Below are positions 11,407-11,528 of a stretch of 15,960 bases of DNA, piece by piece; position 1 is the stretch's first letter, and each line of letters starts with the position of its first letter. The notes below the pieces were generated by a model. That model had not been told where the DNA came from. It made no database searches and saw only the letters and a list, made by a program, of their open reading frames with translations. The stretch is from the IMG/VR virus record IMGVR_UViG_3300046832_002460; one strand, given 5' to 3'. The stretch is from a virus. Position numbers and translations under genes: made by a program.

Positions 11407-11528
11407 GGGCCTCTATCATAATTGGTGAATGAACTCGCCTCGGGGGATGTAGGTTACACAATGAGGTTCAACTCCTCAATCCCCAAACTATAAGCGAGCA
11501 TATCTCCGTTCGAACCGGAGGGGGCCTA
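11407..11528 (+). tRNA. trnP: tRNA-Pro(CGG) with a 48-nt intron at 37/38; CCA encoded at 11529-11531
   Basis: The acceptor GGGCCTC pairs with GGGGCCT, with two G-U pairs. The D-arm is TCAT-AATTGGTGA-ATGA. The anticodon stem CTCGC (11434-38) has the loop CT-CGG-G, and the 3' half GCGAG sits at 11494-98. The 5-nt variable loop is followed by the T-arm CTCCG-TTCGAAC-CGGAG. Confidence 0.6.
11445..11492 (+). other. 48-nt intron in tRNA-Pro; same Y-shaped architecture (closing helix G37GGA/TCCC, hairpin TGTA-ggt-TACA, hairpin TGAGG-ttcaact-CCTCA, 9-nt A-rich tail)
   Basis: Flanked by complementary anticodon-stem halves. Confidence 0.5.

What the first reader, a model, noticed from the sequence alone, without database searches (positions are those of the whole stretch)
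11407..11528. Third intron-containing tRNA (Pro, CGG) with the same intron architecture, 9 kb from the first two
tRNA-Pro(CGG) carries a 48-nt insert at 37/38. It again has a closing helix G37-GGA/TCC-C, two hairpins (the second with the loop TTCAACT) and an A-rich 9-nt tail before A38. Three independent cases in one window argue against an assembly artefact or an accidental insertion. They point to a genome-wide intron system.
Basis: seen in the sequence. Interest (0 to 1): 0.8.

Follow-up and report, generated by a model that had tools for sequence, protein, structure and literature searches.

The report
Tiny tRNA-shaped intron inside phage anticodon
A huge bacteriophage carries a tRNA gene whose anticodon is split by a 48-base insert that folds like a miniature tRNA; it belongs to a small family of such inserts, it makes standard software name the wrong tRNA (Pro instead of a CAU tRNA), and how it is removed is unknown.

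Summary
The insert is real. The same 125-nt gene occurs, base for base, in at least 12 independent assemblies. ARAGORN with introns allowed finds it, and finds two interrupted tRNA-Leu genes in the window.

It recurs in 13 distinct interrupted tRNA genes from related huge phages (12 aligned; 98.7% of cells paired, 19 of 23 pairs with changes on both sides).

The identity and position are wrong. Intronless homologues and alleles place the cuts 1 nt 5' of the closing helix and 5 nt 3' of it, inside the anticodon. That gives the loop CUCAUAA, so this is tRNA(CAU) (Ile2 or Met type), not tRNA-Pro(CGG).
- The joined-exon 17-mer is contiguous in 18 viral contigs, 15 of them inside tRNA(CAU) genes.
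- The canonical-junction control hits no tRNA.
- A TilS N-domain gene lies 3.5 kb upstream.

The insert is not a BHB intron, a group I intron or any Rfam ribozyme. The closest precedent is the "enigmatic" tRNA introns of Lak megaphages (2019). Splicing is inferred, and the enzymes are unknown.

The parts
11363..11391 (+). sigma-70-like promoter match TTGACA-17-TAATAT, 16 nt upstream of the tRNA
   Evidence: 10 of 12 matches. Equally good matches precede the tRNA genes at 1044 and 3960, and a 9 of 12 match precedes the one at 2083. These are consensus matches only.
11407..11441 (+). exon 1 of tRNA(CAU): acceptor 5' strand, D arm, anticodon stem 5' strand, loop C32 U33 C34
   Evidence: The boundary comes from intronless homologues.
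11442..11489 (+). 48-nt insert (intron): 1 unpaired G, then P1-P2-P3 three-way junction, then 5-nt tail AAACU
11443..11447 (+). P1 5' strand GGGGA; pairs with 11480-11484 (UCCCC)
   Evidence: In the family alignment P1 is paired in 100% of cells, and 4 of its 6 pairs show changes on both sides.
11448..11458 (+). P2 hairpin UGUA-GGU-UACA (weak here; 5 bp in most relatives); D-arm-like, with GG
   Evidence: The minimum-free-energy fold of this copy does not predict it.
11462..11478 (+). P3 hairpin UGAGG-UUCAACU-CCUCA, a T-arm look-alike
   Evidence: The loop-closing G-C pair is invariant in 12 of 12 members, and the 7-nt loop has the form UKCRANN (UUCRANN or UGCRAGU) in 11 of 12.
11480..11484 (+). 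P1 3' strand UCCCC
11490..11531 (+). exon 2: A35 U36 A37 A38, anticodon stem 3' strand, variable loop, T arm, acceptor 3' strand, A73, encoded CCA
1044..1181 (+). tRNA-Leu(CAA) with a 51-nt insert of the same family at 1080-1130 (between A35 and A36)
   Evidence: (an intronless allele in L007 has the loop CUCAAAA)
2083..2222 (+). tRNA-Leu(UAA) with a 51-nt insert of the same family at 2119-2169
   Evidence: A near-identical insert sits in class-I tRNA(UAA) genes of L022 and L020.
7317..7919 (+). TilS N-terminal (lysidine synthetase catalytic) domain protein, 200 aa; possible modifier of C34 of the tRNA(CAU)
   Evidence: TIGR02432, 122.5 bits against a cut-off of 93.6; PF01171 is listed for the same gene
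10770..11342 (-). free-standing HNH homing endonuclease gene, 65 nt from the tRNA; 162-aa or 190-aa variants among strains
   Evidence: phrog_655, E = 1e-42. Its link to the insert is not shown.

Best explanation
Window 11407-11531 is a tRNA gene of a huge (Mahaphage-related) bacteriophage with anticodon CAU (Ile2 or Met type). Its anticodon is split between C34 and A35 by a 48-nt intervening sequence at 11442-11489.

The insert belongs to a family of compact (48-62 nt) elements. Each folds on its own into a three-way junction that imitates the top half of a tRNA:
- closing helix P1, like an acceptor stem;
- P2, like a D arm, often with GG;
- P3, a T arm with a UUCRAYY loop and an invariant G-C closing pair.

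The exon-intron boundaries are set by this fold and not by the tRNA body. The 5' boundary lies one nucleotide before P1 and the 3' boundary five nucleotides after it. Removal therefore always restores a 7-nt anticodon loop, whether the insert sits at 34/35 or at 35/36.

I infer that the precursor is transcribed from its own sigma-70-type promoter. I further infer that the insert is cut out by protein or ribonucleoprotein enzymes that recognise its tRNA-like shape, and that the two halves, held together by the tRNA body, are sealed by an RNA ligase. The 5' cut falls where RNase P would cut a tRNA mimic whose stack is 11-13 layers long. C34 could then be converted to lysidine by the phage TilS-domain protein.

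The inserts behave as mobile elements that follow the anticodon-loop sequence: near-identical inserts sit in unrelated tRNA bodies that share the same loop.

Shown: the fold, the family, the boundaries and the tRNA identity. Inferred: that splicing happens, which enzymes do it, and how the inserts move.
For: Gene and insert:
-; identical in at least 12 assemblies.

Host and phage context:
- The vault-like protein at 7960-10449 matches only the 462-735 kb phages LR756500, LR756501 and LR756503 in the phage collection. It also matches hundreds of metagenome proteins on contigs up to 570 kb.

Fold:
- In the 12-member alignment 98.7% of cells pair, against 33-48% when partners are slid. 19 of 23 pairs show changes on both sides, and 0 of 500 shuffles reach the observed values (for 9 members).
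- G-U pairs on the sense strand point to RNA-level selection.

Boundaries:
- The intronless L007 allele has the loop CUCAAAA, which is the product predicted for Leu1.
- L022 tRNA-Leu reads CUCA-C-P1. A canonical reading would put CAC (Val) in a class II Leu body.
- The class-I tRNA(UAA) carries two different inserts, at 35/36 (L022, L020) and at 34/35 (L040). Both give CUUAAAA, and the intronless homologue L024:3830-3906 has the anticodon UAA.
- The L032 body is Thr-like, and the rule gives UGU.
- L049 tRNA-Lys gives CUUUUAA, as in the intronless orthologue L021:865-941.
- The L042 X-type gene gives CUCAUAA, as in the intronless orthologue L021:11875-11956.

Identity of this gene:
- ARAGORN calls the spliced product tRNA(cat), 77 nt.
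- A Vibrio phage tRNA-Met(CAT) matches across the junction: ACTCGCCTC-ATAAGCGA.
- The junction 17-mer occurs in 18 IMG/VR contigs, 15 of them inside tRNA(CAT) genes. The canonical-junction control occurs in 2 contigs, neither in a tRNA.
- All 8 real tRNA-Pro genes of relatives start C1...G72.
- CCG is the rarest Pro codon in the window ORFs (5 of 128), whereas AUA occurs 24 times and AUG 98 times.
- A TilS N-domain gene is present in the window.

Mobility:
- The Leu2-type insert occurs in class II Leu(UAA) and in class-I tRNA(UAA) genes.
- The X-type insert occurs in at least four different CAU bodies.

Not a known RNA family:
- Rfam gives no relevant hit at E up to 10.
- There are no universally conserved unpaired nucleotides apart from the T-loop, which argues for shape recognition by a protein.
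Against: - No RNA data: neither the spliced tRNA nor the free insert has been observed.
- No candidate endonuclease or ligase lies in the window. The only RNA-ligase-like gene seen is a weak Pfam hit in a relative (L041).
- The RNase P idea does not explain the 3' cut. It also does not fit the larger Lak introns, whose tRNA-like domain starts about 27 nt after the 5' boundary.
- One family member (L046) has a tail one nucleotide longer, so the 3' cut is not strictly 5 nt from P1.
- P2 of this particular copy is only 4 bp with a 3-nt loop, and the insert alone folds no better than shuffles.
- The structural alignment was made by hand to fit the structure, so its pair counts lean towards it.
- Whether the tRNA is Ile2 or Met cannot be decided.
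Confidence: 0.6

Rival explanations
1. One reading: a tRNA-Pro(CGG) with a canonical 37/38 intron, removed by an archaeal or eukaryal-type structure-measuring endonuclease.
For: ARAGORN with introns allowed reports tRNA-Pro(cgg) with a 48-nt intron. The position one base after the anticodon is the commonest in archaea and eukaryotes (established knowledge).
Against: - No bulge-helix-bulge can be drawn. The internal loop is 4+9 or 5+8 nt with no 4-bp central helix.
- Promoters, encoded CCA and gene content are bacterial or phage.
- The body lacks C1-G72, which all 8 tRNA-Pro genes of relatives have.
- Homologous genes would read CGG, CCG or nothing.
- The canonical-junction 17-mer is absent from viral tRNA genes, while the CAU junction is in 15.
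Confidence: 0.04
2. The insert is a miniature self-splicing or self-cleaving ribozyme. It excises itself, and host RtcB or a similar ligase may complete the join.
For: The fold is compact and conserved by covariation. The boundaries are set by the insert's own helix and not by the tRNA. Spread into different tRNAs that share a loop sequence would suit reverse splicing.
Against: - No match to hammerhead, twister, pistol, hatchet, HDV, hairpin or group I models at E up to 10.
- 48 nt is far below any known self-splicing intron.
- No unpaired nucleotide is conserved across the family apart from the T-loop. J1/2 is AA, GA, CG or absent, and the 5-nt tail varies. Catalytic cores are normally invariant.
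Confidence: 0.12
3. The insert is never removed. It is a selfish tRNA-derived mini-element that has inactivated the gene. Alternatively, the interrupted RNA has another role, such as a decoy for host anticodon nucleases.
For: Splicing is unproven. The region is a hot spot of cassette replacement and homing-endonuclease turnover. An odd tRNA-like gene lies nearby. Intronless alleles exist at the same site.
Against: - The exons keep a perfect cloverleaf, with compensatory changes between phages whose vault-like proteins are only 46-71% identical to the window's.
- Removal restores exactly 7 loop nucleotides in 12 of 13 cases, and the anticodon then fits the body.
- Each gene keeps a strong promoter match.
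- Selection acts on the RNA structure of the sense strand, including G-U pairs.
Confidence: 0.12
4. Assembly or chimera artefact.
For: None beyond the fact that the data are metagenomic.
Against: The sequence is identical in at least 12 contigs from four independent sources and several assemblers. Homologous inserts occur in diverged relatives.
Confidence: 0.01

Closest known systems
tRNA introns of Lak megaphages (Devoto et al. 2019, Nat Microbiol, PMC6784885)
   Same: - Both are inserts in the anticodon loop of tRNA genes of huge phages. Al-Shayeb et al. 2020 (PMC7162821) place Lak phages in the Mahaphage clade, and the window's vault-like protein finds Mahaphage genomes.
- Neither has an Rfam family.
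- The sequence is identical wherever the same intron occurs.
- Both contain a tRNA-like part with a T arm placed next to the 3' strand of a closing helix.
- The true excision point is offset from the tRNAscan 37/38 prediction.
- The mechanism is unknown; the authors call the introns 'enigmatic'.
   Different: - Lak introns are 79-114 nt. They have an extra 5' hairpin, an A/U linker and a full four-arm tRNA-like domain with a 7-bp closing helix. Only 1-3 nt follow that helix before the 3' boundary, and the 5' boundary lies about 27 nt before it (read by eye).
- The inserts here are 48-62 nt with three helices only. Their boundaries lie 1 nt before and 5 nt after the closing helix, inside the anticodon at 34/35 or 35/36.
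- Sequence homology between the two sets was not tested.
Group I introns in bacterial and phage tRNA genes (tRNA-Leu(UAA), tRNA-Ile(CAU), tRNA-fMet, tRNA-Arg; Patescibacteria, PMC13011429)
   Same: They occur in bacteria and phages, sit in or next to the anticodon, partly affect the same tRNA species (Leu UAA, CAU tRNAs), are mobile, and are often associated with homing endonucleases.
   Different: Group I introns are about 200 nt or more, with a conserved P3-P9 core, a U at the end of the 5' exon and a terminal G. None of this is present here: the insert is 48 nt, Rfam gives no hit, and the 5' exon ends in C, A, G or U.
Archaeal and eukaryal protein-spliced tRNA introns (bulge-helix-bulge, EndA/Sen plus RtcB/Trl1)
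   Same: They are short and structured, their boundaries are defined by structure and not by sequence, and they are presumably removed by cutting and ligation.
   Different: There is no BHB motif, the position is not 37/38, the context is bacterial, and no EndA homologue was seen in the DNA read.
tRNA-like processing signals cut by RNase P and RNase Z (mascRNA/MALAT1; external-guide-sequence substrates)
   Same: A helix stacked on a T arm with an elbow. The 5' boundary lies at the foot of an 11-13-layer stack, as in a tRNA (counted by hand). The covariance model of the insert weakly hits ordinary tRNAs with its core, positions 11-77.
   Different: There is no RCCA tail, the stack length varies, the 3' boundary is 5 nt beyond the helix and not after a discriminator base, and RNase P cleavage was not tested.

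Membership tests
tRNA-Pro(CGG) | Bacterial-type tRNA-Pro body (C1-G72, A73) as seen in this phage clade | tested here: not met
   All 8 intronless tRNA-Pro genes of relatives start C1 and end G72. This gene has G1-U72.
tRNA-Pro(CGG) | Anticodon CGG conserved in homologous genes | tested here: not met
   A canonical reading of homologous interrupted genes gives CGG (window, L020), CCG (L045, L046) or no call at all (L042).
tRNA with anticodon CAU (Ile2 or Met type) | Joined exons form a 7-nt loop CUCAUAA in a cloverleaf recognised as tRNA(CAT) | tested here: met
   ARAGORN on the spliced product gives tRNA(cat), 77 nt.
tRNA with anticodon CAU (Ile2 or Met type) | Intronless homologues carry the same anticodon arm | tested here: met
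   Vibrio phage tRNA-Met(CAT). The junction 17-mer occurs in 18 IMG/VR contigs, 15 of them in tRNA(CAT) genes, and L062 shares G1-U72 and the D loop. The control junction hits no tRNA.
tRNA-Ile2 (lysidine) as opposed to tRNA-Met | C34 converted to lysidine by TilS and charged by IleRS | not testable with these tools
   A TilS N-domain gene is in the window. The gene has C4-G69 and C5-G68, as does E. coli tRNA-Ile2; their role as TilS determinants is recalled from memory. This is suggestive only.
Archaeal/eukaryal BHB tRNA intron | Two 3-nt bulges separated by a 4-bp helix, with a cut in each bulge | tested here: not met
   The internal loop is 4+9 nt here and 5+8 nt in the others. No 4-bp pairing is possible between the 5' loop and the tail.
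Archaeal/eukaryal BHB tRNA intron | Canonical position 37/38 | tested here: not met
   The boundaries are at 34/35 or 35/36.
Group I intron | Conserved catalytic core (P3-P9), about 200 nt or more, match to Rfam RF00028 | tested here: not met
   The insert is 48 nt, with no relevant Rfam match at E up to 10.
Known small self-cleaving ribozymes (hammerhead, twister, pistol, hatchet, HDV-like, hairpin) | Match to the family covariance model and conserved core nucleotides | tested here: not met
   No hit at E up to 10, and no invariant unpaired nucleotides outside the T-loop.
Megaphage (Lak-type) tRNA introns | Non-group-I insert in the anticodon loop of a huge-phage tRNA gene, with no Rfam family | tested here: met
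Megaphage (Lak-type) tRNA introns | Embedded tRNA-like domain with a T arm next to the 3' strand of the closing helix | tested here: met
   P3 is a T-arm look-alike directly 5' of P1'. The Lak sequences were compared by eye.
Megaphage (Lak-type) tRNA introns | Size 79-114 nt with a 5' hairpin, a linker and a four-arm tRNA-like domain | tested here: not met
   The inserts here are 48-62 nt with three helices and no 5' hairpin.
Megaphage (Lak-type) tRNA introns | Sequence or model homology with the Lak introns | not tested
   The Lak sequences are available only as text in the supplement and were not run against model R1.

The most novel reading that the evidence does not exclude
These inserts define a splicing route not yet described for bacteria or their viruses. 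They would be tRNA-shaped mini-introns whose own helix acts as the ruler for two cuts. The cuts would be made by tRNA-processing or phage enzymes (RNase P is a candidate for the 5' cut) and sealed by an RNA ligase. The elements would spread between tRNA genes by recognising a 7-nt anticodon-loop sequence. They would also systematically disguise the anticodon from annotation software, so the tRNA repertoires of huge phages would be mis-stated.
Probability: 0.35. Interest if true: 0.9.

Novelty: new variant of a known kind. Interest (0 to 1): 0.72.

Why it matters
- Bacterial and phage tRNA introns are taught as group I ribozymes, and protein-dependent tRNA splicing as an archaeal and eukaryal trait. 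A family of 48-62-nt, non-ribozyme-looking, tRNA-shaped inserts inside the anticodon of phage tRNAs points to a removal mechanism nobody has defined.
- This family gives that question a tractable substrate: a 125-nt precursor with predicted cut sites.
- There is an immediate practical consequence. Standard tools either miss these genes or assign the wrong anticodon (Pro or Arg for CAU; Pro for Thr or Lys). That distorts inferences about codon use, recoding and host takeover in huge phages.
- The pairing of a split tRNA(CAU) with a phage TilS-domain gene raises the possibility that the intron controls when C34 is modified.

Tried and rejected
- Default ARAGORN and Rfam at gathering threshold do not see the gene.
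- Megablast of the whole window and blastn of the unspliced tRNAs against 50,697 phage records found nothing useful.
- IMG/VR relatives of the HNH gene and of the vault-like protein (L001, L002, L010, L011), and the 40-kb neighbourhoods in LR756501 and LR756500, contain no tRNA genes.
- The pattern CGGAATCGGTAGACG-N75-105-GTTCAAATC for interrupted tRNA-Leu gave 0 hits in IMG/VR.
- I first considered a canonical 36/37 or 37/38 position. I rejected it when L022 tRNA-Leu would have become Val(CAC). The class-I tRNA(UAA), Thr and Lys cases then gave bodies that did not fit the canonical anticodon.
- I also briefly read the class-I tRNA as Val(UAC). I rejected this after finding the intronless homologue L024:3830-3906 and the L040 copy with the insert one base earlier.
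- A BHB motif, a hammerhead core and pairing of the tail with the 5' loop or the P2 loop were each looked for by eye and not found consistently.
- The MAFFT alignment of the raw inserts was structurally wrong. I replaced it with a hand-made, N-padded alignment.
- A permissive T-loop descriptor mostly picked up ordinary tRNAs. I replaced it with a scan that splices each candidate and asks ARAGORN for a tRNA.
- Two GTDB genome scans with subfamily patterns gave 0 hits and 4 chance hits in coding DNA.
- Walking along the phage genome was blocked, because only window proteins can be looked up.
- No consistent link between the HNH genes and the inserts emerged: L020 has the insert without a neighbouring HNH gene.
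Full report
**What is at the coordinates**

Window 11407-11531 (+) reads as a cloverleaf tRNA with an encoded CCA and an extra 48 nt in the anticodon loop. The default tRNA finder and Rfam at gathering threshold do not report it. ARAGORN run with introns allowed reports four tRNA genes, all on the + strand:
- Leu at 1044-1181, with a 51-nt insert;
- Gln(UUG) at 1194-1268, with no insert;
- Leu at 2083-2222, with a 51-nt insert;
- 'Pro(cgg)' at 11407-11531, with a 48-nt insert.

The closing helix is GGGGA/UCCCC. There is a weak hairpin UGUA-GGU-UACA, the hairpin UGAGG-UUCAACU-CCUCA, and the single-stranded tail AAACUAUAA. Thermodynamically this copy is unremarkable: the insert alone gives z = -0.61, against -2.3 and -2.2 for the two Leu inserts. 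The case therefore rests on comparison.

**Where the window comes from**

- The best sigma-70-like matches in the region sit directly upstream of the tRNA genes. Examples are TTGACA-17-TATATT before 1044, TTGACA-16-TATACT before 3960 and TTGACA-17-TAATAT before 11407.
- The proteins include a vault-shoulder-domain protein, a saccharopine-dehydrogenase-like enzyme, a tail-fibre chaperone domain and HNH endonucleases.
- In the phage collection the 829-aa vault-like protein finds only the metagenomic huge phages LR756500 (462 kb) and LR756501/LR756503 (735 kb), at 37% identity.
- In the large protein collection it has a graded series of relatives, several on contigs of 370-570 kb.
- Al-Shayeb et al. 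2020 place their largest genomes and the Lak phages in one clade, Mahaphage, predicted to infect Bacteroidetes.

The window is therefore part of a huge phage of that broad group.

**Not an artefact**

The saccharopine-dehydrogenase-like protein and a 138-aa protein of the window are encoded on many contigs from NCBI bins, ENA, JGI and Logan. All 12 contigs read carry the interrupted gene, and the six compared by alignment are identical over the gene plus 150 nt of flank on each side. These copies carry no variation, so they say nothing about structure.

They do reveal strain differences around the tRNA genes:
- The homing-endonuclease genes have different sizes in different strains.
- L005 and L006 have an extra tRNA-Arg(TCT).
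- In L007 an intronless and sequence-divergent tRNA-Leu(CAA) sits exactly where the window has the interrupted Leu1, with identical flanks.

**A family of inserts**

More distant relatives were reached through the vault-like protein, DNA patterns and a metagenome scan. They gave ten further interrupted genes, 13 distinct cases in all:

| tRNA (by the rule below) | Cases |
|---|---|
| Leu(CAA) | 2 |
| Leu(UAA), class II | 1 |
| class-I-sized tRNA(UAA) | 3 |
| tRNA(CAU) | 5 |
| Thr(UGU) | 1 |
| Lys(UUU) | 1 |

All share one plan. One unpaired nucleotide (G or C) comes first. P1 follows (4-6 bp), then usually AA. P2 is a hairpin of 3-5 bp, often with GG in or next to its loop. After 1-4 nt comes P3, a hairpin of 4-7 bp closed by G-C. 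Its 7-nt loop has the form UUCRANN or UGCRAGU in 11 of 12 members. After 0-2 nt comes the 3' strand of P1, and then a mostly A-rich tail.

On a hand-made structural alignment of 12 members:
- 98.7% of cells form standard pairs, against 33-48% when the partners are slid by 1-3 columns;
- 19 of 23 pairs show changes on both sides;
- no shuffle out of 500 reaches the observed values;
- the G-C pair closing the P3 loop is invariant (for the first 9 members).

The alignment was fitted to the structure, so these numbers lean towards it. Even so, three helices keep pairing through wholly different sequences, which is hard to explain otherwise. G-U pairs on the sense strand indicate selection at the RNA level.

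A covariance model built from this alignment recovers all members except L022-Leu, whose long P2 was trimmed in the alignment. It also recovers one held-out member (L046, 20.9 bits). It finds no copy outside a tRNA anticodon loop in 545 kb. Its only other weak hits are ordinary tRNAs matched by the core of the model.

An independent scan tested every 4-bp helix enclosing 28-115 nt. It spliced each candidate by the rule below and asked ARAGORN for a tRNA with its anticodon at the junction. Over the roughly 635 kb then held, on both strands, it returned exactly these genes plus one dubious hit and one alternative parse of the window gene.

**Where the boundaries are**

The unpaired nucleotides between the anticodon stem and P1 always total 13: 5 + 8 in eight cases and 4 + 9 in four. 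The exception is L046, with 4 + 10. Several splice registers would restore a 7-nt loop, so the register had to be fixed by comparison.

1. The intronless L007 allele has the loop CUCAAAA. Leu1 gives exactly this if cut one nucleotide before P1 and five after it.
2. The syntenic L022 tRNA-Leu reads CUCA-C-P1. Its body is class II and Leu-like, and a canonical reading would make its anticodon CAC (Val). The rule gives CAA.
3. The class-I-sized tRNA of L022 and L020 carries an insert about 85% identical to the window's Leu2 insert and reads CUUA-C-P1. Its intronless homologue L024:3830-3906 has the anticodon UAA. In L040 the same kind of tRNA carries a different insert one base earlier (CUU-G-P1, tail AAAAUAAAA), and the rule again gives CUUAAAA.
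4. L032 has a Thr-like body. A canonical reading gives UGG (Pro), and the rule gives UGU.
5. L049 is the orthologue of the intronless tRNA-Lys at L021:865-941. The rule gives its loop CUUUUAA, whereas a canonical reading gives UGG.
6. The L042 X-type gene, which ARAGORN misses, is the orthologue of the intronless L021:11875-11956, whose loop is CUCAUAA. The rule gives the same loop.

The boundaries are therefore referenced to the insert's own helix. In tRNA numbering they fall at 35/36 or 34/35, inside the anticodon.

**Identity of the gene in the finding**

Applying the rule gives exon 1 at 11407-11441, the insert at 11442-11489, exon 2 at 11490-11531 and the loop CUCAUAA, so the anticodon is CAU.

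- ARAGORN calls the spliced product tRNA(cat), 77 nt.
- The best matches of the joined exons in the phage collection are genes annotated tRNA-Met (anticodon CAT). They align straight across the junction. The Vibrio phage 1.110.O gene reads ...CATAATTGGTTAATGCACTCGCCTCATAAGCGA....
- The junction 17-mer ACTCGCCTCATAAGCGA occurs in 18 IMG/VR contigs, 15 of them inside ARAGORN-called tRNA(cat) genes. L062 even shares G1-U72 and the D loop UAAUUGGUGAA.
- The control covering both canonical junctions (ACTCGCCTCGGRAGCGA) occurs in two contigs, neither in a tRNA.
- All eight intronless tRNA-Pro genes of relatives start with C1 and end with G72. This gene and its L020 and L042 homologues have G1-U72.
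- Read canonically, the five homologous genes would be CGG, CGG, CCG, CCG and uncalled.
- The spliced L020 homologue matches the E. coli tRNA-Ile gene that carries the anticodon CAT, at 80% over 61 nt in essentially every E. coli genome.
- In the window's ORFs CCG is the rarest proline codon (5 of 128). AUA is used 24 times and AUG 98 times.
- The 200-aa gene at 7317-7919 passes NCBI's curated cut-off for the TilS N-terminal lysidine-synthetase domain: 122.5 bits against a cut-off of 93.6.

I cannot decide between Ile2 and Met. The TilS gene, and the pairs C4-G69 and C5-G68 shared with E. coli tRNA-Ile2 (their role is recalled from memory), favour Ile2.

**What it is not**

- No bulge-helix-bulge can be formed.
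- Nothing resembles a group I core.
- Rfam gives no ribozyme or other relevant hit at E up to 10 for this region or the Leu region.
- Across the family no unpaired nucleotide is conserved apart from the T-loop. That is unlike a catalytic core and more like a shape recognised by a protein.

**How it most likely works**

Shown: the fold, the family, the helix-referenced boundaries, the restored 7-nt loop (12 of 13 cases) and the preservation of the exons by compensatory change.

Inferred: the precursor is cut on both sides of the insert and the halves are ligated.

The insert looks like the top half of a tRNA, with P1 stacked on a T-arm-like P3 and P2 supplying GG as a D loop would. From the T-loop to the 5' boundary the stack is 11-13 layers, close to the 12 bp that RNase P measures in a tRNA. 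RNase P is therefore a candidate for the 5' cut. It would leave 3'-OH and 5'-P ends, which an Rnl-type ligase can seal.

The 3' cut is unexplained. It lies in an A-rich single strand, 5 nt beyond P1 (6 nt in L046). No nuclease or ligase candidate lies in the window, and the RNase P idea does not transfer to the larger Lak introns.

I rate 'spliced to a functional tRNA(CAU)' at about 0.7. I rate the particular enzyme proposal at about one in three.

**Mobility**

The Leu2-type insert occurs in a class II tRNA-Leu(UAA) and in class-I-sized tRNA(UAA) genes. The X-type insert occurs in at least four different CAU bodies. In each case the anticodon loop is the shared feature. This points to spread that targets the loop sequence. 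Homing endonuclease genes (phrog_655) flank tRNA genes in the window and vary between strains. They are not consistently next to inserts, so their role is open.

**Comparison with what is known**

Devoto et al. 2019 reported 'enigmatic', highly conserved introns of 79-114 nt in Lak megaphage tRNAs (Tyr, Phe, Thr, Gly). They found no Rfam match apart from a tRNA-like part, and an excision point one base off the tRNAscan prediction. I found no later mechanistic work.

The inserts here are a compact variant in another branch of the same broad phage group. They have three helices instead of a hairpin plus a four-arm tRNA-like domain. Their boundaries lie inside the anticodon, and a simple helix-referenced rule predicts them. 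This is therefore a new variant of a known but unexplained kind.

**Verdict**

- The shared architecture is right.
- The splicing mechanism remains open and is now directly testable.

Interest is 0.72.

Noticed in passing
L024:703-781, 1982-2059, 3744-3822, 3830-3906; L020:15566-15642; L046:2114-2190, 4528-4604: Relatives of this phage carry class-I-sized tRNAs (76-79 nt, short variable loop) with leucine anticodons (CAG, GAG, CAA, UAA), next to ordinary long-arm tRNA-Leu genes. What amino acid they carry is unknown.
   Followed up: partly
window 3960-4049 (+), promoter match 3916-3943: An odd tRNA-like gene. It has an acceptor stem, a T arm and GCCA, but only 4 nt where the D arm should be. 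Its anticodon loop is UUUCUAC (UCU), and a 28-nt D-arm-like hairpin sits in the variable region. Rfam tRNA scores 26.3 bits, below the cut-off of 29. In strains L005 and L006 a normal tRNA-Arg(TCT) sits there, and only the last 25 nt or so of the odd gene remain.
   Followed up: partly
L007:149-231 versus window 1044-1181: At one locus with identical flanks, one strain has an intronless tRNA-Leu(CAA) and the others have an interrupted, sequence-divergent tRNA-Leu(CAA). The tRNA genes are exchanged as cassettes.
   Followed up: yes
window 7317-7919 (+): The phage encodes only the N-terminal catalytic domain of lysidine synthetase TilS (200 aa) and lacks the C-terminal tRNA-binding domains of bacterial TilS.
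   Followed up: partly
window 1296-1970 (-), 3070-3816 (-), 10770-11342 (-): Three free-standing HNH or homing-endonuclease genes are interleaved with the tRNA genes. Their length or presence differs between otherwise identical strains (224 vs 163 aa, 248 vs 280 aa, 190 vs 162 aa).
   Followed up: partly
window 7960-10449 (+), 4678-6081 (+), 12989-13456 (-); L012:16394-16861: The phage encodes a major-vault-protein-like protein (shoulder domain). More than 6,000 homologues were scored; the top hits sit on metagenome contigs, and a few are labelled as bacterial bins. It also encodes a saccharopine-dehydrogenase-like enzyme, and an AdoMet decarboxylase downstream (possible polyamine synthesis), and a Pth2-like peptidyl-tRNA hydrolase.
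   Followed up: no
L046:1356-1482: One X-type insert has a 3' tail one nucleotide longer (GUCCGAAUAA). The 5-nt rule would give an 8-nt loop, so the 3' cut may be set by something other than distance from P1.
   Followed up: partly
L019:4141-4845: An 82%-identity relative encodes a short release-factor-like protein (PCRF and RF-1 domains, 184 aa) just upstream of the saccharopine-dehydrogenase-like gene. The window lacks it.
   Followed up: no
L063:7167-7359: ARAGORN reports a 'tRNA-Thr(agt)' with a 101-nt insert in an unrelated IMG/VR contig. It could be another kind of interrupted phage tRNA or a false call.
   Followed up: no
L012:15100-16302 (-): A TnpB (IS605 OrfB) gene lies about 9 kb downstream of the window region in one strain.
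   Followed up: no
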